IMG/VR virus record: IMGVR_UViG_3300014590_000001
Span: 96,001 to 160,000 of that record
DNA length: 64,000 bases
Direction: 5' to 3' (one strand)
From: a virus
Taxonomy: Duplodnaviria > Caudoviricetes
Position numbers and translations under genes: made by a program. Shown piece by piece: positions 38,734 to 61,032 of this stretch (positions are counted from its first letter, which is position 1; each line of letters begins with the position of its first letter). The notes beneath the pieces were generated by a model. The model saw only the letters and a program-made list of their open reading frames with translations, did not search any database and was not told where the DNA came from.

Positions 38734-38789
38734 ATTCTAATACAAAAGTATTAGATAAGCCATCGACATTTTGGACACAGATTTGCAGA
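38734..38789 (-). promoter_or_regulatory. Box-type promoter 1 (upstream of gyrB)
   Basis: TCTGCAAATCTGTGTCCAAAA-N6-TGGCTT-N17-TAGAAT. Confidence 0.8.
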
Positions 38790-38829
38790 GTTGGTCAAAT
38801 TTTAACCAGTGCAGCTTAGTTGACTATAA

Positions 38830-48496: not shown

Positions 48497-50128
48497 TTAG
48501 CCTTTAGCCAGCAGAGCGCGGAGTTTTTTCTCGCTCATGTTTTCGGCGGCGCGAACTTTCGCAAGACCTTTCTGAACTACGATATCGCGCAGTTCGTCTT
48601 CGTCCAGATCTTCGTAATCGTCGTCTTCGCCTTCTTCAAAATCTTCGTCTTCTTCGTTGCTGTCTTCGCCGTCTTCGTCAGAAACAACTGGTGAGTATTC
48701 TGACAGGCCGGAAATATCTTCGTTGCTAAACGCTACAACTTCTTTACCGCCTTCTTCAATCACCAGCAGATCCGCGTCTTCATCCATGCCGACATAAATC
48801 AGAGTGTCTTCGCCGTCTGTCAGTTTCAGACCAGCAACCAGCGCAGATTCAGGAACGCCCCACAGTTCGGACAGCATGGACAGGTTTTCTTCTGTCACTT
48901 CTGAATCACGTCCGGCTAACTGCTTTTTAGTCAGCGAAACATATTCGTATTCTTCGCCGTCTTCGTCTTCACCGTCTTCAGAATCGTCATCGGAATCTTC
49001 GCCGTCTTCTGAATCGTCTTCATCCTCTTCGTCCTCTTCGGACTCTTCTTCTTCCTCTTCCTCTTCTTCCTCGTCTTCATCTTCATCTTCATCTTCAGCA
49101 ACCAATTCATAGTGGCTCAAAGATCCGGTGGAGATAGTGCGGAATTTTTCGGTTTCGGTGTTGAACAGTACAGCTTTGTTGTTATCGTCAACGCTTGCGC
49201 CGCAGAAAACAAACTGACCATCTTCACCTTCGCGAACCAGCAGAGTGCCAGCAGTCATATCGCTCGCATCAACGCCGAGGTGTTCAGAGATTGCAGCCGC
49301 CAGTTTTTTACCGACAGTTTTACCAACACGCGATTTGATTTTCTTCGCCAGTTCCGGAGAAATTTCATAACCGCCGTTGATTTCTTCAGGCTCAGGCTGC
49401 GCCAGTGCGTATTTGAAATTCATCGTTACGCGAATGTCGCCACCAGTGCGATCAAACTCAGTCGAGTAACCAACTTCGAATGCGTTTTGAATCGCCGCGT
49501 TGTTTTCGTCAAACTTCGCGAGAGAAGAATCTTTCGCGACTGCCATCAGACGTTCAGTAATAACTTTCGCCAACGGTTCGCCAACTTCAGACAGTGACAC
49601 GGTGCCTTTCGGTTTGATACCAAAGTCGCTCATTTCAACGCCAGCGTTTTTAGCGCCACGACGTTTAACAGTGCGACCAGTTGTTTCTTCTACATCAACA
49701 TCCGCAGCTTTGCGGCGAACTTTAGAAGGTTTCTCTTCAACGTCTTCAACGTCTTCAGCAGGTTTGCGACCGGAAGTTTTGCGGCCAGTAGTTTTAGCTG
49801 GCTTGTCTTCAGCAGGTTTGCGACCGGAAGTTTTCTTGCCAGTTGCTTTAGCAGGTTTTTCTAAGAAAGCGTCAGTGCCAACTTTTTTCTGCATCGCTTT
49901 GTCGGAAAATTCAACGTAGCCGTTTCCGGTGTCGTTCAGTTCACGCAGAGACACGTTAGGGATTTCGTAAAACATCGCGCCCTTTTTCGCAACCTGCTTG
50001 CTGTTCACACGAACAGAGCGGTCTGCAACTTTGTAGCCAGTAGCTACAGCAGCGGTGATTTTAGTTTTGGTGCCGTCCAGCAGAACAATTGATTTACCGA
50101 TCAGAGCTTTGTTAGTTGCGATTGCCAT
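48497..50128 (-). CDS. Bipolar protein: basic N-half, acidic C-half, internal duplication, terminal helical repeat
   Basis: KTSGRKPAED repeats, E/D tracts, C-terminal DYEDLDEDELR...LRALL. Confidence 0.85.
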   Translation of the reverse strand: MAIATNKALIGKSIVLLDGTKTKITAAVATGYKVADRSVRVNSKQVAKKGAMFYEIPNVSLRELNDTGNGYVEFSDKAMQKKVGTDAFLEKPAKATGKKTSGRKPAEDKPAKTTGRKTSGRKPAEDVEDVEEKPSKVRRKAADVDVEETTGRTVKRRGAKNAGVEMSDFGIKPKGTVSLSEVGEPLAKVITERLMAVAKDSSLAKFDENNAAIQNAFEVGYSTEFDRTGGDIRVTMNFKYALAQPEPEEINGGYEISPELAKKIKSRVGKTVGKKLAAAISEHLGVDASDMTAGTLLVREGEDGQFVFCGASVDDNNKAVLFNTETEKFRTISTGSLSHYELVAEDEDEDEDEEEEEEEEEESEEDEEDEDDSEDGEDSDDDSEDGEDEDGEEYEYVSLTKKQLAGRDSEVTEENLSMLSELWGVPESALVAGLKLTDGEDTLIYVGMDEDADLLVIEEGGKEVVAFSNEDISGLSEYSPVVSDEDGEDSNEEDEDFEEGEDDDYEDLDEDELRDIVVQKGLAKVRAAENMSEKKLRALLAKG

Positions 50129-50193
50129 GATTATTTCTCCTAAGAAATAGTAGTTGAGGCTTTTAAGTTCGGCACTGCGCCGAGTGAGATTAA

Positions 50194-50249
50194 ATAGTGC
50201 ATGAAACTCTCAGAAGTTTCAATCAACATTTTAGACACTATTTTGCAGA
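50194..50249 (-). promoter_or_regulatory. Box-type promoter 2
   Basis: TCTGCAAAATAGTGTCTAAAA-N6-TTGAAA-N17-CACTAT. Confidence 0.75.
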
Positions 50250-50272
50250 GTTCCCAAAGGTGGAGACTTTGC

Positions 50273-50355
50273 AAAAAAGTGTGGGCATCCATTCCCACAT
50301 AAAGGTTCCAAACAAACTACTTGATACTTGAGGGTTCAGAGCGTTGCCGCCCTGT
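50273..50355 (-). ncRNA. Candidate small RNA, about 83 nt
   Basis: Own box promoter; 5' GCAA-tetraloop hairpin; 3' TGTGGG/CCCACA hairpin with CTTTTTT; no enclosed ORF. Confidence 0.6.
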
Positions 50356-50361
50356 CCTTAT

Positions 50362-50417
50362 ATTCTAGCTGAACGGAGCGGCAAATGCTATCGGTATTTT
50401 GGACACTTATTTGCAGA
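50362..50417 (-). promoter_or_regulatory. Box-type promoter 3 (drives the candidate sRNA)
   Basis: TCTGCAAATAAGTGTCCAAAA-N6-TAGCAT-N17-TAGAAT. Confidence 0.8.
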
Positions 50418-50427
50418 CTTTGAAACT

Positions 50428-50976
50428 TCAGCCCTTGCGAGATTTCGCTTCAGGCATCTGCTTTTTAGGTGGAACCGTATATTTCGATTTCTTAGGTTCC
50501 TTGAATTTCTTCATGCCGTGGCGTGTGCCGTGGATTTTGTTAAAACGATACGTTGCATCCGCAATAAAGCAACGCTTCGAGAAACTGTCTTTTTTAGGCA
50601 GAACCGAATCATCGACAATGCCAAGCGCTTTTACTTCAGCGAGCAGATCTTTAAACTCAGGGAAGAAACCGCACTGGTTATTCATGATCTCGTCAGTTTT
50701 GAAAGGATCGATTTCAACATAACGAATCATGTGAAGCATTTCTTTATTCACACCAGTGACCGCCGAAACTTGTTTTTGAACAATGTCAGACGATTTGGAT
50801 AAATCAGCCAGCGCAGCAAATTCTTTTTCGGTCAGGCCGATTGTTTTCAGAATCGCTTTCTTGCTGTCCTTGTCGCTATGTTCGCTCAGGAATAATTCGA
50901 ATGCTTTTGACAAAGCAACAGAGAGCAGAGCGGCTTGTGATTGGGTTGAGGCTTCGGTGAACTTCATTGTAGTCAT
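50428..50976 (-). CDS. Hypothetical protein with basic C-tail
   Basis: 182-aa ORF directly downstream of promoter 4. Confidence 0.75.
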   Translation of the reverse strand: MTTMKFTEASTQSQAALLSVALSKAFELFLSEHSDKDSKKAILKTIGLTEKEFAALADLSKSSDIVQKQVSAVTGVNKEMLHMIRYVEIDPFKTDEIMNNQCGFFPEFKDLLAEVKALGIVDDSVLPKKDSFSKRCFIADATYRFNKIHGTRHGMKKFKEPKKSKYTVPPKKQMPEAKSRKG

Positions 50977-51014
50977 CCTTTGTAAGTCTAAGCGGTATTG
51001 CTTAGTGAGTCTTT

Positions 51015-51070
51015 ATAGTATGAAAGTTTCGTGTCCAAAACAACCTGTATTTTGGACACTGTTTTGCAGA
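51015..51070 (-). promoter_or_regulatory. Box-type promoter 4 with an inverted extra half-box
   Basis: TCTGCAAAACAGTGTCCAAAA-N6-TTGTTT-N17-TACTAT; second GTGTCCAAAA on the + strand at 51031-51040. Confidence 0.8.
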
Positions 51071-51076
51071 CTTGCT

Positions 51077-51442
51077 TTATACAAGGCCGTCCAGTTTTCT
51101 GTCTAACTCTGCCTGAATCTTTTTGTGTCGTTCACGCTCGCCCAGCATACGGAAGAAAACGAATGTTCCCCACAGCCAGAATGTGAGCGGCAGAGGCACA
51201 ACGATCAGAATCCAGAAAGGCAGCAAAAGCAGCCACGCGAAAAACTGCGCGATTGTCATGTGCCAGCTTAATTCGCAAATCTTTTCCCACAGCGATTTAA
51301 AGCATTTGCCGATTCCATCCGCGACCAACGCCCAACAATCCAAAAGACTAGGCTTGTACGATCCAGCGCGAACCACGCCGTAGGGATTGTGGAAAAACTG
51401 ATAAATGGTTGCGCTATTTTTTACTTCTTCAATTGTTGGCAT
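51077..51442 (-). CDS. Membrane protein
   Basis: Long hydrophobic stretch FFAWLLLLPFWILIVVPLPLTFWLWGTFVFF. Confidence 0.7.
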   Translation of the reverse strand: MPTIEEVKNSATIYQFFHNPYGVVRAGSYKPSLLDCWALVADGIGKCFKSLWEKICELSWHMTIAQFFAWLLLLPFWILIVVPLPLTFWLWGTFVFFRMLGERERHKKIQAELDRKLDGLV

Positions 51443-51819
51443 CAGAATCTCGCCTCCCCTAAAACAATTGAGCCGTCATCAATTTTCGCTTCTCGAATTT
51501 TATCTCCGCGATCCGGCAGACGAACGATGTAGGTTGCATGTTTCCATCCGCGATGTGAGTTAACAGGCTCAGTTGTGCGGTACATAATAAGAGGATGAAG
51601 ATCGTCAGAATGAAACGAATTGTAATCTGCAACGAATTTTAATTGTGCCTCTTCGCTAAAATTCGTTTCGCCCACAAAAGCCATCGCACGAATCAAATCA
51701 ATTCGAACAACGCCGCCAGCTTTGCTGGGTTTAGTTTTGAGTGCGAACGTCTGATATTTCTTACGACGATCTTGTGGATGCAGATTGTGATTTTCAACCA
51801 GCGAATCAATGTAGCCCAT
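51442..51819 (-). CDS. Hypothetical protein
   Basis: Start MGYIDS, GAGG RBS. Confidence 0.7.
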   Translation of the reverse strand: MGYIDSLVENHNLHPQDRRKKYQTFALKTKPSKAGGVVRIDLIRAMAFVGETNFSEEAQLKFVADYNSFHSDDLHPLIMYRTTEPVNSHRGWKHATYIVRLPDRGDKIREAKIDDGSIVLGEARF

Positions 51820-51820
51820 T

Positions 51821-52054
51821 TTATTTTCCTCTTCCGTAGCCGCCGATTGCCTCTTGCACAGCAATATGTTTAAGAATGCGATGATGTAGAGCTTCGCGTG
51901 AACTCCCCTCAAAATCGCTAGGGATAACATTTGCAGCAACCATTATTTCTTTGAGTTGTTGCGTGGATAAATGCGCGAACTCTTCAGCAACATTTTCCAT
52001 AGAAGGATTGTTGCGTAACTTGCTACTGATTTGCATTGCCATGTTGTTTCTCAC
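51821..52054 (-). CDS. Small hypothetical protein
   Basis: Fills the gap in the operon; LSTQQLKEIM...SREAL helical pattern. Confidence 0.65.
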   Translation of the reverse strand: MRNNMAMQISSKLRNNPSMENVAEEFAHLSTQQLKEIMVAANVIPSDFEGSSREALHHRILKHIAVQEAIGGYGRGK

Positions 52055-52416
52055 TCTTCGTCAGGTTCGTCTTCAGGTTCAGCGCCTACCATCATATCAA
52101 GTTCTTCTATGGATAAATCAAGAGAACTTTCAACGCGACGAGCAGAAAGACGTACCCAATTTCTCGTCTGACTGATAAGCAACAATGCGTACTGGCCGCA
52201 GTCAACAGGGAAGATTAAATATCCACGTTGCCGCAAATGGAATTCCAATTCTTGAAGAACACTCGGTTCGATATAGCTGTTTCTATATCCAAACAGTCCA
52301 GCTACAACGTTGCCCGTAATAATGATACGAGTTATCGTTTTGTTCTTTTCTTCTGCATATGATTTCATGTTAAGAACAAGCAGGGCAGCGACAGCTTCAG
52401 CAGTACGGAATTTCAT
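52051..52416 (-). CDS. Hypothetical protein
   Basis: GGAG RBS. Confidence 0.7.
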   Translation of the reverse strand: MKFRTAEAVAALLVLNMKSYAEEKNKTITRIIITGNVVAGLFGYRNSYIEPSVLQELEFHLRQRGYLIFPVDCGQYALLLISQTRNWVRLSARRVESSLDLSIEELDMMVGAEPEDEPDEE

Positions 52417-52436
52417 AAAATTTTCTCCAGAAAGTT

Positions 52437-52463
52437 AAAAAGGGCAGCACCGAAGTGCCACCC
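52437..52463 (-). terminator. Intrinsic terminator
   Basis: GGGTGGCAC-TTCG-GTGCTGCCC-TTTTT. Confidence 0.88.
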
Positions 52464-52471
52464 GAATTTAT

Positions 52472-53248
52472 TTACGCTTGCTCAGATTTGAAAGCATGTA
52501 CAGCAACCATCATCGAGTCGATGTTAGAAAATTCTGCATCGGAAACTTTGATTTTGTTTGCGATTGCGAAATCTTGAAGTTGCTCAAGATTCCAACCCTG
52601 CATTGCTTTCGCAGCCTTGCGAACGTTTTCTGGACGACCATCATATTCATGGTCAATGTCACGATCATCAACTACTGTTTGATCTTCGTCTTCGTCTTCG
52701 TCCTCACCCCCAAAACCATGTTCAATCAGTTTTTCCGTTGCAGGACTAATCTGGTAGTCATCACTACCTCTGGTGCGACCGATACGAGCACGGACAACTT
52801 TCGTTTTCGTATCAGGCAGACGAATGAACAGACAGTCAGGAGAATCCCAATCAACGAACACCCACGAACCGTAAACGTCAGCAATATCCAAACCGGATAA
52901 TGTGTCGTTGATCAGATCATGCAATCGCGATACGCGAGTGTTTTTCAAAGTGCGTGACATAATCAAATTGATTTCACGCATACTAACTTTGATGATGTTT
53001 TGATCGGAGCCTTCGAGATTATTCTCTTTGGCTATCCGCCATTTCTCTAAAACCGAAACAACAAAACTATTCAAACGGTCTGCATCTGTAATGCGCGCAG
53101 AAATCACTGCTTCAGAATTCTTTGCGCGAACAGAAGCGGGAGCGCCTTTTGCTTTAGCGAGTTTCTTTGCACCAGCTTTAGTTGCATCCGCGTTCTTTTT
53201 AGCACGACCAGCTTCGATTTGTTTTGCGATCACTTTAGGATTAGGCAT
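52472..53248 (-). CDS. Hypothetical protein, paralogue of 54358..55179
   Basis: Start MPNPK (AAGGA RBS); shared core domain. Confidence 0.8.
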   Translation of the reverse strand: MPNPKVIAKQIEAGRAKKNADATKAGAKKLAKAKGAPASVRAKNSEAVISARITDADRLNSFVVSVLEKWRIAKENNLEGSDQNIIKVSMREINLIMSRTLKNTRVSRLHDLINDTLSGLDIADVYGSWVFVDWDSPDCLFIRLPDTKTKVVRARIGRTRGSDDYQISPATEKLIEHGFGGEDEDEDEDQTVVDDRDIDHEYDGRPENVRKAAKAMQGWNLEQLQDFAIANKIKVSDAEFSNIDSMMVAVHAFKSEQA

Positions 53249-53340
53249 TTTGTAGTTCCTTTGGGATTTACGTTGAAAGCATGTAAGGTGAAAACCCCGT
53301 AAATCCTTACACGCTTGTTGAGGCAAGTGCCTCGGTCTTT

Positions 53341-53396
53341 ATTGTCTCAAAATAACGAGGCGATAGCCACCGATATTTTGGACACTGTTTTGCAGA
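53341..53396 (-). promoter_or_regulatory. Box-type promoter 5
   Basis: TCTGCAAAACAGTGTCCAAAA-N6-TGGCTA-N17-GACAAT (TGn extended -10). Confidence 0.75.
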
Positions 53397-53434
53397 CTTG
53401 CTAGGTCTTGTTATGCGTCTTCTGAAAGGCACAT

Positions 53435-53503
53435 AAAAAGACGGCTTGATTCATCACCTCCGTCCGTGGAGGCATTCGTTGGGGAAATCCAGAATCAAGC
53501 CGT
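53435..53503. ncRNA. Candidate three-way-junction structured element
   Basis: Perfect 12-bp closing stem ACGGCTTGATTC/GAATCAAGCCGT enclosing two hairpins. Confidence 0.45.
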
Positions 53504-53543
53504 GAGCAAGTTAGCTCTAATAGTTGCACAACCTTTCTAAAAC

Positions 53544-54335
53544 TTATTCCTCGTCTTCTTCTTCACCTTCTTCGACGAGATCTTCAATGATGTTATCGCC
53601 ATCGAATTCGTCAGTGAAAACTTCTTCTTCATCTTCGAAATCGAAATCTTCTTCGTCGTCTGCATCCAGTTCGAGAGACAATGAAGAGTCAACGCGATCT
53701 TTATTTTCCATGTAGGCGATTGCTTCACGCGCCATTGAAGTGAAACACATATCAGGATTCACTTTCAGTTCGTGCAGCATGAATTTGTCTTGCCACTCTG
53801 CGCGATTCTTTTCAACGATTTCGTCAACGTGATCTTCCAGTTCCTCCCCGCCGCGAATTGGCAGTTCGAGGAATTTCATTACGTGGCGCACTTCGCGAAT
53901 CGGAGACTCGCACAACATTTCATAGAGCGATTGACGTTCAATGCTGTCACGCGCTTCAATCAAAAACGCTTGCAGTTTTTCGCTGTTACGTACTGCAACG
54001 CGCTTGACCGCTTTCTTTGTAGGCACAAGTTTATCGTGCAAAGAAATCAGCGGAACTTCGGCGTATGCGTTTCCGATTTCGAGAATCGTACACATATCGA
54101 CAAAACTTTCTGCGTCCTGCATTGGATCGATTTTCACAACGCTGCGCATCACGACTTGCGAATCCAATTCGCTACCATCAGAGTAGATGATAGAAACAGG
54201 TAAGGCGCTTCCGTAGATCTTCGCAATTGCTTGCGACAGCAGAAGGCCAGGAACGTGCGGGGCAATTAACTTTCCGTTCAGCAGGAAAGAATAAGTGATA
54301 CCACAGAAACCGGTTTTACGTTGAATAGTTAACAT
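53544..54335 (-). CDS. Hypothetical protein with acidic C-tail
   Basis: 263-aa ORF. Confidence 0.8.
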   Translation of the reverse strand: MLTIQRKTGFCGITYSFLLNGKLIAPHVPGLLLSQAIAKIYGSALPVSIIYSDGSELDSQVVMRSVVKIDPMQDAESFVDMCTILEIGNAYAEVPLISLHDKLVPTKKAVKRVAVRNSEKLQAFLIEARDSIERQSLYEMLCESPIREVRHVMKFLELPIRGGEELEDHVDEIVEKNRAEWQDKFMLHELKVNPDMCFTSMAREAIAYMENKDRVDSSLSLELDADDEEDFDFEDEEEVFTDEFDGDNIIEDLVEEGEEEDEE

Positions 54336-54357
54336 AGCAAGATACCTACCTTTAAGT

Positions 54358-55179
54358 TTATTTTGATTGAGCGATCAGGAATTCTAACAGAGCAGCATCT
54401 GGATTGTTTCTAGCTTTAAGCGTTATGCCCATATTGTCAGCAGCATCGCGAACGCTTTCAAAATCCAGCAAATCCAAAAGTTCATTAACTGCTTGTTGCG
54501 TAGTTCCTTCTAGCTCGCCAATATTCAGAGTTGTTGCGAGTTCGTTCAACACTTCAAGATCTTGAGAGAGTAAAACGAACTTCAATTGTTGGTAAGTCCC
54601 CGAAGTTTGTCGCCGTTCTTCAGGAGTAAGGCTATCAACTTCAGCAATACGTTTGCGTGTATTGCGAAGTGAGTCAGGAGCTTTCTGTACATCAGCAGGA
54701 GAAAATTCTTCCTGCAACTTATTTTCAGTTTTAACAGGATTGGCTTTAGGTTTTGCCTCTTTAACTGGTTTCTCTTTCTTCGGCTTTTCTTCCGGTTCAG
54801 CGAAATCAGTTTCACCCAATTCAACCAACTTGCCTGTATAACCATTTTTAGAATAGACAATACCAACTACGCTTGTTGCAGAATGCGGCAATTCAATCAA
54901 AGTAAAATCAGGTGCATCATGTTTCACCAGCGCCCAATCTCCGTGAATAGCGCGGAAATTAAAATCGCCAATAACTTTTTCTACCAGTTGCGGAAGTTTA
55001 CGACGAGGCGTGTTTTCCAAAACTTTGTGAAGATCCGCAACAGAAAACTTAATGTAGTTGTCGTTAAACAACTCGCCCTTTTCGTACAGTCCACGGCGAA
55101 CAGCTTCGTTAGCTTCGAAGATACTTACCAGTGCCGCACGTACACCATCAAAATCACTCTGACTTGTTACAGCAGACAT
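54358..55179 (-). CDS. Hypothetical protein, paralogue of 52472..53248
   Basis: GAGG RBS; shared core domain. Confidence 0.8.
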   Translation of the reverse strand: MSAVTSQSDFDGVRAALVSIFEANEAVRRGLYEKGELFNDNYIKFSVADLHKVLENTPRRKLPQLVEKVIGDFNFRAIHGDWALVKHDAPDFTLIELPHSATSVVGIVYSKNGYTGKLVELGETDFAEPEEKPKKEKPVKEAKPKANPVKTENKLQEEFSPADVQKAPDSLRNTRKRIAEVDSLTPEERRQTSGTYQQLKFVLLSQDLEVLNELATTLNIGELEGTTQQAVNELLDLLDFESVRDAADNMGITLKARNNPDAALLEFLIAQSK

Positions 55180-55189
55180 TTCATTTACC

Positions 55190-55597
55190 TCAACTTAAAA
55201 TTTGTTGCAGCGACAGCACCGGAATTTCCGGAATGAAGATAAAGATTTTTTGCTCAGGAATATCGGATTTGAGTACCGCATGTTTTTTCATGTACTCAGT
55301 TCCATCCGCTACCATCCAACCGCCGAACCAGTTCGCGAATTCAGGCGAGGCTAACACGCGATTAATGCAGTTGGTTGTTTCCGCTTCATCCCATTGATGA
55401 TCCACCATCGCGCCATCACCGAAAACAATGCGAACATCGTTTGCATTAGCGTAGAAGTCGATCATCGGAACGTGAAACGCGATAGCGCCATTGCGTTGCA
55501 TATGTTGATCGACTTGCGAGAAAACTTCTTCGACTTTGCGAGCAGCCGCATATAACGCCAACTTGCCAGTAAACTTATCCAAGTCTAAAACTTTCAT
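55190..55597 (-). CDS. Hypothetical protein
   Basis: 135-aa ORF. Confidence 0.7.
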   Translation of the reverse strand: MKVLDLDKFTGKLALYAAARKVEEVFSQVDQHMQRNGAIAFHVPMIDFYANANDVRIVFGDGAMVDHQWDEAETTNCINRVLASPEFANWFGGWMVADGTEYMKKHAVLKSDIPEQKIFIFIPEIPVLSLQQILS

Positions 55598-55770
55598 TGT
55601 GCAGTTACCTTGTATCGAACGACGGTGCGGGTGGATGTTTCTACGTGCGCCTTTGTGAAGTGAATGCCGCGCATACGTGCAGCAAATTCAAAGTCACCTA
55701 AATCAATTCCAGTAGGAAAAACGATCTTGCCCTTACGCTGTAACTCTGCAAGTTTTTCCGAAATGCTCAT
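55594..55770 (-). CDS. 58-aa hypothetical protein
   Basis: Manual translation MSISEKLAELQRKGKIVFPTG...RYKVTAQ; ATGA overlaps at both ends. Confidence 0.7.
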   Translation of the reverse strand: MSISEKLAELQRKGKIVFPTGIDLGDFEFAARMRGIHFTKAHVETSTRTVVRYKVTAQ

Positions 55771-56372
55771 GCGTATGCCTTTTTAAACTTTGGTGTAGCG
55801 AAAGACCATAATGCTTTGCGTACATAATAAAGGAGAGAATGCTGAACACTGAAAACGTCTACAGTGAACGTTTCAGTTTTCATACCATAACGAACGTCAG
55901 CCCATACGATTGCGCTCACGATATCTTCGAGCATCCACTCAGTAGTGAACGATGGATGAATTGAACGCTCTAAGAAAATGCGACCTGCTTTTGAAATGCC
56001 GGACAGAATATTTTCGCCGTCGTGTGTTAAGCGAACTCCATCAGCGAAATCAAAACCGCCTGGGACAAAAAACGGAATCCATTTTCCGGTCAACGAAATC
56101 TTGAACGGTGAAATAATGGATTTCAAAAACGAGTGAGATTTTTTCAGATACTCACGAACGAAATGCAAACGCATATTTGCATTGTCGATATTTTCGTAAC
56201 CTTCAATTTCAACCGGAACTTTAATCATCGTCCACTTGTGTTTGTACAAGTCGAGATTGTGTTTGTAGCTGGACAGACGCAAATCGAATGAATGCCCGAT
56301 TGCACGATCCAGTACAGCGTCTTGCAGTTCAATCAGGTTGTTTAAGTCGGCTACGGTTTTGAGAGCGAACAT
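55767..56372 (-). CDS. Hypothetical protein
   Basis: AGGAG RBS; first gene after promoter 6. Confidence 0.75.
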   Translation of the reverse strand: MFALKTVADLNNLIELQDAVLDRAIGHSFDLRLSSYKHNLDLYKHKWTMIKVPVEIEGYENIDNANMRLHFVREYLKKSHSFLKSIISPFKISLTGKWIPFFVPGGFDFADGVRLTHDGENILSGISKAGRIFLERSIHPSFTTEWMLEDIVSAIVWADVRYGMKTETFTVDVFSVQHSLLYYVRKALWSFATPKFKKAYA

Positions 56373-56426
56373 ATAGAACTCCTTTGCAGTCTATATAAAA
56401 GTTTAGGTTAGGTACGGCTTACCCTT

Positions 56427-56482
56427 AGTTTACAGAATAAGCCGTTTTGTTGCCAGCGGTATTTTGGACACTTATTTGTCGA
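56427..56482 (-). promoter_or_regulatory. Box-type promoter 6 (upstream half degenerate, overlaps a stop codon)
   Basis: TCGACAAATAAGTGTCCAAAA-N6-TGGCAA-N17-TAAACT. Confidence 0.75.
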
Positions 56483-57092
56483 GATCTACGATAGTGACCC
56501 GCTTCATTCCTTCGGGCGCGATAACCTTGCCATCGTTTGTAGTCACTGAATATTGCTCGATATGAACGCCCTTATTAAGTTGCGTCTTCAGAGCTTCAAG
56601 GAACATCGCTTTACGCGCCTGAAGTTTCGCGAGCCGTTCTTCAGCACCATCCCATTTCGCTTTGCCGAGTTGGTGAATACCGCGCTCAATGTTTTCCATG
56701 TGACGCGTGAACAGATGATATTCAATGTAACGATCAGCAGCGATGATTTCATCCACTGTTTCGTTTTGATAATACGCATTCAGGAAATTCAACATGCCGT
56801 CAGCGCTATCATCCATTTGACCGTAAGAGGCATTCGGGAATTGATTACGTCCTTCCAATCCGTTCCAGTTGAAAAGGAATCCGTCATACTTCAGTTCTTT
56901 ATTTTCTGACGTATCCCAATGGCAAGGAACTTTTTCATGATGCACACAAGTTGCTTCAATAAAAGTTACATCCAGAATTTCTGCGTCGAGATCGGTTGTT
57001 GGAAACGCGTGTGCCTTTTCAATCGGATTGCCGTTGTTATATTTGTGCTGGAAAGCGAAGAAGACGTATTTTTTATTCAGTTCGAAGCGCAT
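56472..57092 (-). CDS. Hypothetical protein
   Basis: 206-aa ORF. Confidence 0.75.
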   Translation of the reverse strand: MRFELNKKYVFFAFQHKYNNGNPIEKAHAFPTTDLDAEILDVTFIEATCVHHEKVPCHWDTSENKELKYDGFLFNWNGLEGRNQFPNASYGQMDDSADGMLNFLNAYYQNETVDEIIAADRYIEYHLFTRHMENIERGIHQLGKAKWDGAEERLAKLQARKAMFLEALKTQLNKGVHIEQYSVTTNDGKVIAPEGMKRVTIVDLDK

Positions 57093-57115
57093 GATTATTT
57101 TCCGTATCAGAGAAT

Positions 57116-57517
57116 TTATTTAGACCATTTGAAATCGACGAGAGCATTGCGGATAATCTTGCTGCGCAATTCCGCTTGCGCTTTTCGGCAATACGCTTTC
57201 CAAAGTTTGTCTTTTACTTTGGAGTAATCCGACGGGCCATCGTTAGATGAAACCATGTTGTCTTTCGCCAAATAAACCAGATTGGCAAGCAGACGTTTAA
57301 TGGAGCGGTCTAATGTGGCTTTGATTTTCAAATTGCCTTTGTCGCTAACGCGAACAACCACACGCAACAACTTTTCTTTCTCAATAGGCAGCGAGAAGGT
57401 GTACGGCGTAGAATCTACTTTCACCATCACCCTAGTTTCAATGTCAGCCTGACTAAGATTCAACAGGCTAGTGAGAGTGCGTTGCAGAAGAACATCATAA
57501 ATTGATTTCTTACTCAT
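57116..57517 (-). CDS. Hypothetical protein
   Basis: 133-aa ORF. Confidence 0.7.
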   Translation of the reverse strand: MSKKSIYDVLLQRTLTSLLNLSQADIETRVMVKVDSTPYTFSLPIEKEKLLRVVVRVSDKGNLKIKATLDRSIKRLLANLVYLAKDNMVSSNDGPSDYSKVKDKLWKAYCRKAQAELRSKIIRNALVDFKWSK

Positions 57518-57523
57518 GATCGC

Positions 57524-57730
57524 TTATACCTTTGTTACTTTAGGATTGATGTTGAAATGCTTCTGAACATACAGAGCACCTTTACCTGCGGCGACGTTAA
57601 ATTCCATTGTCTGCCCTTCGTCTTCGAAAGGATGAATACCGAGCGGCAGTTCGGTTGTGACAATCACTTTATCACAACCATTGCCTGTCAAAACTTCAAC
57701 GCGTTTCACACGCAGATTGATTGTTTCCAT
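57524..57730 (-). CDS. Small hypothetical protein
   Basis: Start METINL, GGAGG RBS. Confidence 0.7.
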   Translation of the reverse strand: METINLRVKRVEVLTGNGCDKVIVTTELPLGIHPFEDEGQTMEFNVAAGKGALYVQKHFNINPKVTKV

Positions 57731-57731
57731 T

Positions 57732-58184
57732 TTACACCTCCACGCTTGCAATGCCGATGAAGAAATCTTCGTAAGGCAGAATTAAAAAGTTAACGACACT
57801 CAGAAGTTTTGTGTCGGGCAATCTGAACGACTGTACAAAACAATCTTCAGGATTCGTTTGCGTATAACGCACAAACAATTCGTTCAGCAGGAATTTGTAA
57901 TCGTCGTCAGCAGGTGAAAACTTCTCACCATCGTAACCGAGCATTTCCAGCAGCACGGAAGTTTGTACACGATGACCGCCTTTCGAAATCACATACACAA
58001 ATGAGATCGGAAGAATTGATTTATTGGTGCCGTGTGACTCGTTGTAGCGCTGAACCGCCTCACTCTCTACTTGCTTAAAGAATGGTTCAGTGCTTTGCCA
58101 AAGTCTATTCTGAAACAAAACCGGACGAGTGCGAAATTCTACACCACTCAATACAAGCAATCCACTTTTCGGATCGAAGTTCAT
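57732..58184 (-). CDS. Hypothetical protein
   Basis: 150-aa ORF. Confidence 0.7.
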   Translation of the reverse strand: MNFDPKSGLLVLSGVEFRTRPVLFQNRLWQSTEPFFKQVESEAVQRYNESHGTNKSILPISFVYVISKGGHRVQTSVLLEMLGYDGEKFSPADDDYKFLLNELFVRYTQTNPEDCFVQSFRLPDTKLLSVVNFLILPYEDFFIGIASVEV

Positions 58185-58708
58185 TTTATGTCCTTAGCCA
58201 TATCAGGCCAATGGGATTTATTTATGCGAGCGCGAATTGTGCGAAAGAAGTTTCCTTCAATGTAACCGCTAAACGGTTCGGCTCGTAACTCGTTTCTTAC
58301 GTGATACGATTCAATGGCAAGCATCACTTTCTCAGGATTCACCATGTCCTTCGCCGCCGCATAAATGATTTCACGAGAATTGATTTCCAGTTCAAACGTG
58401 ATTCTGCTATTGCGCACACCGATCACGAAAGGATCAATGCTTTGCGAAATAACCGGAACAACTAAAACCAATTCCCCTTTCCGATAACGAGCAGCGGAAG
58501 TAACAATCTTTTGTGCGTAAGGTTCCAGTGAGCGAAAGTACGCATTAAGAACATCAGCATCTTTAAAGTGTTTAGGAACCGGAAGACGAAACACGCGATA
58601 GTTTAGCTCGTAGTGGAGCAGCGAACCGCGCTGAATGTCGTTGTTCAGAATGTTGTTCTGAATTTCAGCAAGAGTCATTACGTCAGAGATAGCGGCGATT
58701 GGGAACAT
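58181..58708 (-). CDS. Hypothetical protein
   Basis: 175-aa ORF. Confidence 0.7.
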   Translation of the reverse strand: MFPIAAISDVMTLAEIQNNILNNDIQRGSLLHYELNYRVFRLPVPKHFKDADVLNAYFRSLEPYAQKIVTSAARYRKGELVLVVPVISQSIDPFVIGVRNSRITFELEINSREIIYAAAKDMVNPEKVMLAIESYHVRNELRAEPFSGYIEGNFFRTIRARINKSHWPDMAKDIK

Positions 58709-58719
58709 TAGTTTCTGTC

Positions 58720-59418
58720 CTAGTAGCGTTTAATTGAATTTATGTAATCCAACATTTCAAGTTTATGTTGAATCACGTAACGTTCGAACATTCTCTTTGC
58801 CTGTTCGGTACAGAATACCAGAGAGCGGAGAAAGTCGATTCGGTCATACACGAAATTGATAAGACGATGATCGTCAAATGCGTACTGCGGGAAAACTGAA
58901 ACGAGTTCACCGCGCAGACCTTCAACAATCGTTACAGCACGGCCAGGCATAACGCCCCACAAAATATCCGCATCACGTAAAACTTTTTCGTACACGGTTT
59001 GCGGCACACGGTCTTCAGTGTATGGGAATTGCGTAATCAGAATCAGCTTTTCAATTTCTTTTTCCAGACGTTTAAAATCGGGATTAGAATCGGATTGCCA
59101 AATCCAGTCATGCAGAGCAGAGATCGCGTTTTGAATATTAACATCATCGCTGAATTCCCCTAACGTGTGATCCATATCGTGAATCAACGCAGCAGCCAGC
59201 AAGGAGAAAATTTCGTCATGACTCTCTTTTGCAGATTCCGGAAGAAGATCCAAACACAACAACGCCACCCCATCCATGTGCATTGTTGTGTGGTAAAGCA
59301 TAGTTGTATTCTTCACTGAATTGTTTTGCGCGATCCACTCACGATATTGTGTTAGACCATACTGATTGCAAATTTCATTCAGACGAGAATCAAACTCAAC
59401 GCTAGTGAGCAGTGCCAT
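58720..59418 (-). CDS. HD-superfamily phosphohydrolase (PDE-like motif spacing)
   Basis: YHTTMH...AALIHDMDHTLG...LRDAD; start MALLTS. Confidence 0.8.
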   Translation of the reverse strand: MALLTSVEFDSRLNEICNQYGLTQYREWIAQNNSVKNTTMLYHTTMHMDGVALLCLDLLPESAKESHDEIFSLLAAALIHDMDHTLGEFSDDVNIQNAISALHDWIWQSDSNPDFKRLEKEIEKLILITQFPYTEDRVPQTVYEKVLRDADILWGVMPGRAVTIVEGLRGELVSVFPQYAFDDHRLINFVYDRIDFLRSLVFCTEQAKRMFERYVIQHKLEMLDYINSIKRY

Positions 59419-59429
59419 AATTTTTTTCC

Positions 59430-59951
59430 TTACGCAGCGGCAGGAAAAAAGGATCGCCATACTGTTAAGATAGACGTACCGTTTTTCCTGCGAGTACGAA
59501 CAATGAGAGGAATGCCGGTGTAGAAACCGTGTATCATTGCAACACGTATTTCTTCTAAAGAAATTCGCGGTGAGCGATCTTGATAACCGAAGTATAACTC
59601 GTCCGGCGAGCTAACATGCTCAGGCACACGCTCTACAAAAGTAGAAAGCATTGCAGCGAATTTTTCTTCTATCTCCACTCTACCATTTTCATGAGCGAAG
59701 ATTTCTTCGCGAGCAGTTTCAGTGTGTGCAACCGGAACGATCAACGGGATTGCTTTTTCTGGACGCTTATTAGCGTACTCTTCATACAGCGGAGTGACAA
59801 ACGGATAGTTGCGAGAAACGCATTCGCAAAATTCGTATATCATCGACTCTGGAGCGCTTGGAACAATAAGCGTGAGTAAAGCAAATTCCTGCGAAGGAGC
59901 GAAAGGCTTTAACAGTTCGGTCTGGAAATCAAGTAAAGCGTTTACGTTCAT
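59430..59951 (-). CDS. Hypothetical protein
   Basis: GAGG RBS. Confidence 0.7.
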   Translation of the reverse strand: MNVNALLDFQTELLKPFAPSQEFALLTLIVPSAPESMIYEFCECVSRNYPFVTPLYEEYANKRPEKAIPLIVPVAHTETAREEIFAHENGRVEIEEKFAAMLSTFVERVPEHVSSPDELYFGYQDRSPRISLEEIRVAMIHGFYTGIPLIVRTRRKNGTSILTVWRSFFPAAA

Positions 59952-59961
59952 AGTGTATACC

Positions 59962-60255
59962 TCAGTAATGTTTTAGGCCGCGTACAACTTCTCCCGCGAG
60001 ATTGATTAAGCGAACAATATGCAATGCGTCTTTTTCATAACGCGGTTTATATGCAACACTGTATTCGATGACTTCTTGAATTAATTTCAGTGCAACATTT
60101 TTGCGCCTGTTCATTAACTCCCGATAAGCAGCGCAACTTTTATCGGTGAGGACAGAGACAATATCATTTGGGCGCTTTGCGCGTTCAAGTTCGAGCTTGA
60201 AAGCAATGAAGTCGAGAGCCAGTTTACGAGCTTTCTCTTGAGTTCTAATGGTCAT
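59962..60255 (-). CDS. Hypothetical protein
   Basis: First gene after promoter 7. Confidence 0.7.
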   Translation of the reverse strand: MTIRTQEKARKLALDFIAFKLELERAKRPNDIVSVLTDKSCAAYRELMNRRKNVALKLIQEVIEYSVAYKPRYEKDALHIVRLINLAGEVVRGLKHY

Positions 60256-60299
60256 GGTCGATTACCTGTGCAAATGAGTGTATGTGTTTCCCTTCGCCT

Positions 60300-60355
60300 A
60301 GTTTACCTAAGCGAAACGGCAAATGCCATCACTATTTTGGACACCAATTTGCAGA
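60300..60355 (-). promoter_or_regulatory. Box-type promoter 7
   Basis: TCTGCAAATTGGTGTCCAAAA-N6-TGGCAT-N17-TAAACT. Confidence 0.8.
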
Positions 60356-60376
60356 GTTTAACAGTTCATGGAAGCC

Positions 60377-60411
60377 AAAAAGGGAACCTGAAGTGTCCGA
60401 CAGGTTCCCTT
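60377..60411 (-). terminator. Intrinsic terminator
   Basis: AAGGGAACCTG...CAGGTTCCCTT-TTT. Confidence 0.8.
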
Positions 60412-60416
60412 GAGTT

Positions 60417-60992
60417 TTAAACTACGCGATGGTACTGCTTCATAACTTTAGCGTAATACTGCGGAGATCTAACGCCGCGCTTATAAGCATACTTGCCCAC
60501 GTTGTAAGAATGCACGATGCACCTAACATTGTTTCGACAAGTCTTCTTTAAGTCGGCAAGAATTTCCGCTGCCTTATCCACATTCTTTCGATAGTTCATC
60601 ATATCGCTTTTGGTTGTCGCATGATATCGAGGAATAACCTGACACATACCAACAGCACCACGATTGACGACACGTTTTCGTAAATGAGATTCGGATACAC
60701 ATACCGAAACCAGAAGTTTTGCATCTATGCCGTGTTTTTTAGCGGCGCTATCAAACACGAAACCAAGATCATCAGGTTGTGGTAGATGTGCGTACAACTT
60801 CTGCAAACGCACCGTAGCTTTTTTCTGCGGTTTTGCTTGCGTGAGTTTTACTCCCGTATTGCTTTGCTGTGATGAAACTGAAGCGTTCGCTTTGAGCGAA
60901 AATGAGATTGCTACAGCAAGGATCAGTCCCATGCAAATTTTTGCAAGGGAACCTCTTTTGATCACCTCGATGGTTTGAAGGTTGGAATTCAT
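60417..60992 (-). CDS. Lytic transglycosylase (SLT family) with N-terminal signal/anchor
   Basis: Catalytic ES (VSESH), GAVGMCQV, SYNVG. Confidence 0.88.
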   Translation of the reverse strand: MNSNLQTIEVIKRGSLAKICMGLILAVAISFSLKANASVSSQQSNTGVKLTQAKPQKKATVRLQKLYAHLPQPDDLGFVFDSAAKKHGIDAKLLVSVCVSESHLRKRVVNRGAVGMCQVIPRYHATTKSDMMNYRKNVDKAAEILADLKKTCRNNVRCIVHSYNVGKYAYKRGVRSPQYYAKVMKQYHRVV

Positions 60993-61032
60993 TGTTTGGA
61001 AAATCTCCTAGAGTAATTGCTGCTAGGTCAAG

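What the first reader, a model, noticed from the sequence alone, without database searches (positions are those of the whole stretch)
50344..60315. The -10 elements of box promoters sit inside hairpins that pair best on the non-template strand
Seen on the minus strand: promoter 6 ACGGCTTATTCT-GTAAACTA-AGGGTAAGCCGT (12 bp, two G.T). Promoter 7 TTCGCTTAG-GTAAA-CTAGGCGAA (9 bp, one G.T). Promoter 3 TTGCCGCTC...GGGCGGCAA flanking TAGAAT. Promoter 5 GCCTCG...CGAGGC flanking GACAAT. The arm sequences differ between promoters but the geometry is shared: 5' arm in the spacer, 3' arm at or just before the transcript start. Promoters 1 and 2 instead carry palindromes in the spacer (TCTAATAC/GTATTAGA; TGAAACT/AGTTTCA). 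Known: N4 virion-RNAP promoters use supercoil-extruded hairpins. Inference: either structure-assisted promoter melting or supercoiling sensing, or processing hairpins in read-through RNA.
Basis: partly seen in the sequence, partly recalled or inferred. Interest (0 to 1): 0.75.

Follow-up and report, generated by a model that had tools for sequence, protein, structure and literature searches.

The report
Stem-loops embedded in phage early promoters
The early promoters of this 257-kb jumbo phage really do carry hairpins that wrap around their -10 elements, but this is the promoter-plus-stem-loop design (PeSL) already described in T4-type phages, and it most likely acts on RNA that reads through from upstream rather than helping the promoter to melt.

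Summary
Observation confirmed. The window is part of a complete 256,657-bp phage about 77% identical to Dickeya jumbo phages JA29/JA11 (Salmondvirus). Genome-wide there are 11 "box" promoters: a 24-bp box, 4 nt, a -35-like hexamer, 17 nt, then a -10-like hexamer. Nine of the 11 fold far better than shuffles (z<-2.2), against 3.7% of random genome windows. Six or seven stems have the 5' arm in the spacer, the -10 in the loop and the 3' arm at about +1.

The coding strand folds better (9/11), mainly through G.T pairs, which points to RNA. In three related lineages only the P6 and P9 orthologues keep such a hairpin, but with clear compensatory changes; the others are lineage-specific or sit elsewhere in the promoter.

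The same geometry is published for PeSLs (promoter-early stem-loops) of T4-type phages RB49/phi1, and I reproduced it on phi1. A gene-plus-promoter cassette flanked by two boxes is missing in the JA phages, as PeSL-mediated shuffling predicts. I found no phage RNA polymerase, so the N4 analogy fails.

Best reading: PeSL-like composite promoter/stem-loops that act on read-through RNA. This is a new member of a known kind. This scan has already noted PeSL-like arrays on other phage DNA.

The parts
60333..60356 (-). P7 upstream 24-bp box (CTCTGCAAATTG GTGTCCAAAATA)
   Evidence: same box in JA29/JA33/JA13 and the IMG-A lineage
60293..60315 (-). P7 hairpin TTCGCTTAG-GTAAA-CTAGGCGAA. The 5' arm is in the spacer, the -10 TAAACT (60300-60305) lies in the loop and 3' arm, and the 3' arm ends at about -1.
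   Evidence: (z about -3.9); not kept in JA29/JA33/IMG-A orthologues
56460..56483 (-). P6 box; the stop codon of the upstream gene lies inside it
56414..56445 (-). P6 hairpin, 12 bp (2 G.T), with an 8-nt loop holding the -10 TAAACT (56427-56432). No T-run follows it.
   Evidence: (z about -4.5), 57: kept in JA29, JA13 and IMG-A with both-side changes at 7 of 12 stem positions
53374..53397 (-). P5 box
53329..53361 (-). P5 hairpin GCCTCG...CGAGGC with an inner TTATT/AATAA, around the -10 GACAAT (53341-53346). Its 3' arm can pair instead with GCCTC downstream (5'-UTR hairpin 53320-53333).
   Evidence: more stable on the template strand; 5' arm not kept in JA29/JA33
51048..51071 (-). P4 box
51031..51059 (-). 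P4 hairpin: box half GTGTCCAAAATA pairs with TGTTTTGGACAC, which covers the -35 and spacer (12 bp, 1 G.T)
50395..50418 (-). P3 box
50344..50384 (-). P3 hairpin TTGCCGCTC...GGGCGGCAA around the -10 TAGAAT (50362-50367). Its 3' arm is also the 5' arm of a GCAA-capped 5'-terminal hairpin (50339-50352).
   Evidence: only partly kept in JA33/JA29 and absent in IMG-A, whereas the GCAA hairpin is kept with covariation
50227..50250 (-). P2 box
50202..50221 (-). P2 hairpin TGAAACT-TCTGAG-AGTTTCA over the -35 and spacer
   Evidence: JA29/JA33/IMG-A carry a different palindrome (GCGAT...ATCGC) a few bases upstream
38767..38790 (-). P1 box
38736..38755 (-). P1 hairpin TCTAATAC-TTTT-GTATTAGA; the 3' arm overlaps the -10 TAGAAT (38734-38739)
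   Evidence: weakened in the JA phages (GTGCTAGA)
50420..51038 (-). Cassette (gene 50428-50976 plus one promoter) bounded by the P4 and P3 boxes. It is absent from JA29 and JA33, and the junction lies inside the single box there.
60377..60409 (-). Canonical intrinsic terminator (stem plus T-run) upstream of P7. Similar ones lie at 53432-53504 (upstream of P5), 52437-52463 and 50273-50298 (upstream of P2).

Best explanation
These are PeSL-like composite elements: host sigma-70-type early promoters with a stem-loop built into the core promoter.

Shown: each promoter has a conserved 24-bp A-tract box at about -38 to -61, a -35-like hexamer, a 17-nt spacer and a -10-like hexamer. The arms of the stem sit in the positions a promoter leaves free (the spacer and the stretch from the -10 to about +1), so the constrained -10 ends up in the loop.

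Inferred: the hairpin works as RNA. A transcript that reads through from the upstream genes contains both arms and folds. A transcript started at the promoter itself begins inside or after the 3' arm and cannot fold. The element can therefore stop, attenuate or 3'-protect upstream RNA without touching its own message.

P9 (outside the window) looks like a true intrinsic terminator, with a T-run kept in four lineages. P6 is under selection for pairing but has no T-run. Most of the other stems are lineage-specific.

Shown by one example: because the elements are repeated, they also serve as recombination points that add or remove gene cassettes.
For: - Promoter architecture is fixed in all 11 copies and in the relatives. 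I found no phage RNA polymerase or sigma-70-family protein in the complete genome.
- Hairpins are strongly enriched at the core promoter: 9/11 at z<-2.2 against a 3.7% background, and the flanks are weaker.
- The coding strand is favoured, and the stems contain G.T rather than A.C.
- The P6 and P9 hairpins are kept in JA29, JA13/JA33 and IMG-A with compensatory changes. In P6, 7 of 12 stem positions changed on both sides. In P9, 11 pairs are kept and one is a GC/CG flip.
- P6 and P9 are promoters where the upstream gene ends inside the box with no separate terminator.
[quoted passage not shown] My own folds of phi1 intergenic regions show the same 5'-arm-in-spacer, -10-in-loop geometry, also without T-runs.
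- A gene-plus-promoter cassette bounded by two boxes is absent in JA29/JA33.
Against: - Only P9 has a T-run. P3, P5, P6 and P7 are not canonical terminators, and none of them was flagged.
- P5 and P7 (and P2, with a spacer palindrome) already have a good terminator just upstream yet still carry stems in this genome.
- In the relatives the enrichment is much weaker: 2/9, 2/9 and 2/7 at z<-2.2. Fisher combined p is 3e-3, 0.15 and 5e-3. Most individual stems may therefore be neutral or recent.
- P5 folds better on the template strand.
- No transcript ends were measured. The transcription starts are inferred from the -10 position.
- The inner T.G pairs could partly be forced by a T-rich spacer end and a G-rich discriminator.
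Confidence: 0.6

Rival explanations
1. DNA-level device. Negative supercoiling extrudes the inverted repeat, exposing the -10 as single-stranded non-template DNA. Extrusion would then aid open-complex formation or make the promoters sense supercoiling.
For: The -10 sits in the loop of six or seven stems. P7 and P1 have short loops (5 and 4 nt) that could extrude. The PeSL authors report that phi1 stems form in single-stranded DNA and block sequencing reactions.
Against: Loops of 8-23 nt in P3, P5, P6 and P9. The template-strand arm would carry A.C mismatches, and the strand asymmetry fits RNA. Stem position varies between promoters. Most stems are not kept in orthologous promoters. I found no hairpin-reading polymerase. 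The open bubble (-11 to +2) cannot include the spacer arm.
Confidence: 0.1
2. Mostly a by-product. Only P6 and P9 are functional. The other stems would arise from shared promoter constraints (T-rich end of the spacer, G-rich discriminator), from gene conversion between paralogous promoters (for example TTGCCGC in both P3 and P7), or from overlap with the real 5'-UTR hairpins (P3, P5).
For: The P3, P5 and P7 stems are not conserved in relatives, while the 5'-UTR hairpins of P3 and P5 are. Enrichment in relatives is modest. Spacer sequences are shared between P3 and P7 here and in JA29.
Against: Nine of 11 promoters at z<-2.2 is far above the shuffle and genome backgrounds. Relatives often carry a different stem elsewhere in the same promoter (P2, P4, P5), which suggests turnover of a selected feature.
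Confidence: 0.2
3. The palindromes are operators for dimeric regulatory proteins that overlap the core promoter. One example would be a box-binding factor that also binds the inverted half-box in P4.
For: P4 carries a perfect inverted copy of the box half-site. Similar TCCAAAAT...ATTTTGGA repeats occur in P5 of JA29.
Against: Arm sequences differ in every promoter. In P6 and P9 pairing is conserved rather than sequence. G.T pairs make the DNA repeats imperfect.
Confidence: 0.07

Closest known systems
PeSLs (promoter-early stem-loops) of T4-type phages RB49/phi1 (Arbiol et al. 2010, PMC2839356)
   Same: A sigma-70-type early promoter with an A/T-rich upstream region that often holds the upstream stop codon. 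The stem-loop lies between the -35 and -10 or overlaps the -10, and has G-T pairs. The elements sit among small genes of unknown function, and gene indels are bounded by them. My folds of phi1 show stems such as GGGTGTAT-ATCATA-ATACACCC and GGGGATAT-AGCATA-ATATCCCC, with the same arm positions as P7 and P6 and also no T-run.
   Different: The host phage is a Salmondvirus-like jumbo phage, not a T4-type phage. The upstream part is a strictly conserved 24-bp box made of two 12-bp repeats rather than a plain A/T tract. The -35 is weaker (TkGnnn). The stems are not polyG/polyC and differ in every copy. The 5' leaders are longer. There are 11 elements rather than dozens.
nt-1/KVP40 and PST/T4 PeSLs (Comeau et al. 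2014, PMC4122927)
   Same: Composite terminator/promoter motifs that sit next to indels in variable regions, with non-consensus -35 hexamers.
   Different: In those phages the stem-loop lies just upstream of the promoter. Here it is inside the promoter.
Phage N4 early promoters read by the virion RNA polymerase (from my own knowledge)
   Different: N4 hairpins have 5-7 bp stems and 3-nt loops with conserved bases. They are read on the template strand by a dedicated virion polymerase. Here the promoters are sigma-70 type, the loops are large, the coding strand is favoured, and I found no such polymerase.
Intrinsic (Rho-independent) terminators
   Same: The P9 hairpin (outside the window) has an 11-14 bp stem followed by TTTT in all four lineages.
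   Different: The loop is 10-12 nt and contains a -10 element. P3, P5, P6 and P7 lack the T-run.

Membership tests
PeSL (promoter-early stem-loop) elements | Sigma-70-like -35 and -10 hexamers 17 nt apart, predicted to be early promoters | tested here: met
   All 11 copies read box - 4 nt - T(k)Gnnn - 17 nt - nAnnnT. The same holds in the relatives. The -35 is weaker than in RB49/phi1. Activity was not measured.
PeSL (promoter-early stem-loop) elements | [quoted passage not shown] | tested here: met
   The box carries two A-tracts (GCAAA, CCAAAATA). The stop codons of the genes upstream of P6 and P9 lie inside it, and those upstream of P3, P4, P8 and P10 lie 5-12 nt before it. Unlike PeSLs, the G/C positions of the box are also invariant.
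PeSL (promoter-early stem-loop) elements | Stable stem-loop within or overlapping the promoter, in variable positions, with G-T pairs | tested here: met
   Nine of 11 promoters at z<-2.2. Positions seen: box/-35 (P4), -35/spacer (P2), spacer/-10 (P1), and around the -10 (P3, P5-P9). The geometry was reproduced on phi1 itself.
PeSL (promoter-early stem-loop) elements | Stems rich in polyG followed by polyC (RB49/phi1 type) | tested here: not met
   The arms are mixed sequences that differ in each promoter. The 2014 paper shows that stem composition varies between phage groups.
PeSL (promoter-early stem-loop) elements | Located among small variable genes and bounding indels between related phages | tested here: met
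   Relatives annotate the region as hypothetical proteins. The cassette 50420-51038, bounded by the P4 and P3 boxes, is absent in JA29/JA33. This is a single example.
PeSL (promoter-early stem-loop) elements | The stem-loop terminates or attenuates upstream transcription | not testable with these tools
   Only contig-level RNA data were available. A T-run is present only after P9.
N4-type hairpin promoters | Read by a phage virion RNA polymerase | tested here: not met
   No PF00940, PF00623 or PF04542 match in the complete genome. The PF00940 control matched nothing anywhere, so that negative proves little. The longest open frame is 1,947 aa, and the three largest match a PHROG DNA helicase family, a tail protein family and a family of unknown function. 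Sensitivity for very divergent polymerases is limited.
N4-type hairpin promoters | Short stem (5-7 bp) and 3-nt loop with conserved bases, functional on the template strand | tested here: not met
   Loops are 4-23 nt, there is no shared loop or stem sequence apart from the -10, and the coding strand is more stable.
Intrinsic terminators | G+C-rich stem, short loop, followed by a T-run | tested here: not met
   The scan of 49500-61000 does not call the -10-enclosing hairpins. P3, P5, P6 and P7 have no T-run. P9 outside the window does, but its loop is about 12 nt.

The most novel reading that the evidence does not exclude
The -10-in-the-loop design could be a coupled stop-and-restart unit. Read-through polymerase would be released by the hairpin exactly on top of the next promoter and re-initiate there (polymerase hand-over). 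Alternatively, the same repeat could extrude in supercoiled DNA and pre-melt the -10. Either way the hairpin would tune promoter strength as well as insulate the units. This would give PeSL-type stems a mechanistic role that has not been shown for any phage.
Probability: 0.1. Interest if true: 0.65.

Novelty: new member of a known kind. Interest (0 to 1): 0.3.

Why it matters
The finding extends the PeSL design (an early promoter with a built-in stem-loop that also marks cassette boundaries) from T4-type phages to a Salmondvirus-like jumbo phage of plant-associated enterobacteria.

It also adds something I did not find in the two PeSL papers I read. Two of the stems (P6 and P9) keep their pairing through compensatory changes across four lineages, and they favour the RNA-like strand. 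That argues for a selected RNA-level function rather than mere sequence repetition.

The practical value is in annotating early transcription units and cassette boundaries in jumbo phages. It does not reveal a new mechanism.

Tried and rejected
- My first box pattern had the wrong spacing (N5 instead of N4). The hits were chance and were discarded. The corrected pattern was used.
- The metagenome scan returned mostly chance single hits and re-found only the IMG-A lineage. It gave no further independent lineages for covariation.
- The MAFFT alignment of the P6 orthologues is not structure-aware, so RNAalifold reported no covariation. I replaced it with per-sequence folds indexed from the -10.
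- RNA-labelled public runs were available only as contigs. They show no starts or ends. One 140-nt adapter-flanked piece (56347-56486) spans P6 but is a single low-depth record. I draw nothing from it.
- Rfam found nothing relevant in 49500-61000.
- Reading the box itself as the promoter was rejected: CTGCAA and CAAAAT are only about 9 nt apart. A sigma-54 reading of TGGCAT..TTGCC was also rejected, because the spacing is wrong.
- The idea that stems occur only where no upstream terminator exists holds for the conserved pair P6/P9. It does not hold for P5, P7 or P2 in this genome.
- The slot gene between P4 and P3 in IMG-A is not a foreign replacement. It is a weak homologue of ours, 33% identical over 81 aa.


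Full report
**What the DNA is.** The window is bases 96,001-160,000 of a complete 256,657-bp virus record with 44% G+C. The region 50,000-60,600 is about 77% identical to Dickeya jumbo phages JA29, JA11/JA33 and JA13, genus Salmondvirus, where the genes are annotated as hypothetical proteins. All genes of the region lie on the minus strand.

**The promoters.** A 24-bp box occurs 11 times in the genome, always on the minus strand. It consists of two 12-bp repeats: (C/G)TCTGCAAAnnn and GTGTCCAAAATA. Seven copies are in the window (P1 38767-38790, P2 50227-50250, P3 50395-50418, P4 51048-51071, P5 53374-53397, P6 56460-56483, P7 60333-60356). Four lie further along the genome (P8-P11).

In every copy the box is followed by 4 nt, a -35-like hexamer (TGGCAT, TTGAAA, TGGCAA and similar), exactly 17 nt, and a -10-like hexamer with A at position 2 and T at position 6 (TAGAAT, TAAACT, TACTAT and similar). 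I found no match to the sigma-70 region 2, Rpb1 or single-subunit RNA polymerase Pfam models, although the control for the single-subunit model matched nothing anywhere, so that negative proves little. The three longest open frames match a PHROG helicase family, a tail protein family and a family of unknown function. Reading these as host sigma-70 early promoters with an UP-like or factor-binding box is therefore reasonable. It remains inferred, because no transcript starts were measured.

**Check of the observation.** Folding the 56 nt from the -35 to about +20 gives z<-2.2 against dinucleotide shuffles for 9 of 11 promoters; P10 and P11 are the exceptions. Among 400 random 56-nt windows of the same genome, 3.7% reach that value (mean z -0.11). 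Windows upstream of the box and downstream of +5 are much less structured, with mean z of -1.0 and -0.5 against -2.6 for the core. A simple gapless best-stem statistic gives a Fisher combined p of 7e-7.

The stems that enclose the -10 are P3, P5, P6 and P7 in the window, plus P8, P9 and weakly P10 outside it. P9 is the strongest at 13-14 bp. P1, P2 and P4 carry stems over spacer/-10, -35/spacer and box/-35 respectively.

**Strand preference.** With RNA parameters the coding strand is more stable in 9/11 promoters here (p=0.04), 8/9 in JA29, 9/9 in JA33 and 4/7 in the IMG-A lineage. With DNA parameters the difference nearly disappears. I also searched for stems while treating G.T and A.C alike. 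The transition mismatches then split G.T versus A.C as 8:3, 4:2, 6:4 and 7:1. P5 is an exception and folds better on the template strand. The pattern is what RNA-level pairing predicts.

**Relatives.** After I corrected my search pattern, the same box promoters appeared in JA29, JA33 and JA13. They also appeared in a fourth lineage known only from IMG/VR and JGI metagenome contigs, which I call IMG-A (for example Ga0308168_1000050, 256 kb).

In these genomes only 2/9, 2/9 and 2/7 core promoters reach z<-2.2. In JA29 and IMG-A these are the orthologues of P6 and P9; in JA33 they are P3 and, at the borderline, P9. Best-stem combined p values are 3e-3, 0.15 and 5e-3.

- P9 keeps 11 pairs in all four lineages, with one GC/CG flip and a T-run after the stem.
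- P6 keeps a 10-13 bp stem at the same place, but the arms differ: ACGGC/GCCGT here, ACGCC/GGCGT in JA29 and TACTGC/GCAGTA in IMG-A. Indexed from the -10, 7 of 12 stem positions changed on both sides while staying paired.
- The P3, P5 and P7 stems are not kept.
- P2, P4 and P5 of the relatives often carry a different stem elsewhere in the promoter.
- P6 and P9 are promoters whose upstream gene ends inside the box with no separate terminator. P2, P5, P7 and P11 have a canonical terminator just upstream.

**What it resembles.** Arbiol et al. 2010 (PMC2839356) described PeSLs in T4-type phages RB49 and phi1. [quoted passage not shown] One tested stem reduced downstream lacZ about as much as rrnB T1. 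Recombination between PeSLs deletes or inserts small genes. Comeau et al. 2014 extended this to T4/PST and KVP40/nt-1.

I fetched phi1 (EF437941) and folded its intergenic regions. Several have the 5' arm in the spacer, the -10 in the loop and the 3' arm ending at about +1, without a T-run. This is the same geometry as P6 and P7.

The recombination aspect is also seen here. The stretch 50420-51038 (gene 50428-50976 plus one promoter) lies between the P4 and P3 boxes. It is missing from JA29 and JA33, where a single box marks the junction. The protein has no match anywhere in those two genomes and only a weak homologue in the same slot of IMG-A.

**Mechanism.** The following steps are shown:
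- the promoter architecture;
- the enrichment of stems;
- the strand bias;
- covariation at P6 and P9;
- the cassette indel.

The following steps are inferred. The stems act in RNA that reads through from upstream. Such RNA contains both arms, whereas the promoter's own RNA starts within or after the 3' arm. The element therefore stops, attenuates or 3'-protects upstream transcripts without affecting its own. The shared geometry follows from the arms being confined to the unconstrained parts of a promoter.

Weak points:
- only P9 has a T-run;
- P5 and P7 have both a terminator and a stem;
- most stems are lineage-specific;
- part of the inner T.G pairing may be forced by a T-rich spacer end and a G-rich discriminator.

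**Rivals.** A DNA-level role (cruciform extrusion, pre-melting, supercoil sensing) is not excluded. It fits poorly with the large loops, the strand bias, the variable position and the weak orthologous conservation. The N4 comparison fails its defining features. Operators for dimeric proteins do not fit, because pairing is conserved rather than sequence. A sizeable share of the stems may be by-products.

**Verdict.** The feature is a new member of a known kind, PeSL-like elements, in a phage group where I found no published description. This scan has already noted similar arrays on other phage genomes.

Noticed in passing
window 50273-50352 (minus strand): P3 has no gene downstream. It is followed by a GCAA-capped 5' hairpin, an unstructured stretch and a terminator (50273-50298) just before P2, which suggests an RNA of about 85 nt. 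JA29 and IMG-A keep both hairpins with different stem sequences (GGGCG/CGCTC here, AGGGCA/TGCCCT in JA29, GGGGCG/CGCCTC in IMG-A).
   Followed up: partly
window 50988-51005, 50169-50183, 53320-53333; L175 (P8): Most box promoters encode a hairpin at the very start of their transcript. P4, P8 and the JA29/JA33 P8 orthologues share the loop AATACC/AATAAC on different stems. This could be a protein-binding or 5'-end-protecting RNA motif.
   Followed up: no
window 53249-53335 (minus strand): The leader between P5 and its gene can form two interleaved helices (TGTAAGG/CCTTACA and GGATTTACG/CGTAAATCC), that is a pseudoknot, ending 3 nt before the ribosome site. The sequence is nearly identical in JA29.
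   Followed up: no
window 51031-51059; L008 (JA29 P5): The box half-site recurs as an inverted copy over the -35 and spacer in P4 here (GTGTCCAAAA/TTTTGGACAC) and in P5 of JA29 (TCCAAAAT/ATTTTGGA). The box itself is a tandem 12-bp repeat, which suggests a sequence-specific binding protein rather than a plain UP element.
   Followed up: partly
L040 and L044 (Erwinia phage pEa_SNUABM_30): This Alexandravirus carries a variant box (CTCTGCAAATAA CTGGTCAAAATA) in front of -35/-10-like hexamers, followed by GAGCG...CGCTC hairpins at the predicted start. The box promoter family therefore reaches beyond Salmondvirus.
   Followed up: no
window 51833-52416 versus L008 3167: A second indel relative to JA29 (about 580 bp, two small genes) is not bounded by box promoters. 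It ends next to the terminator at 52437-52463.
   Followed up: no
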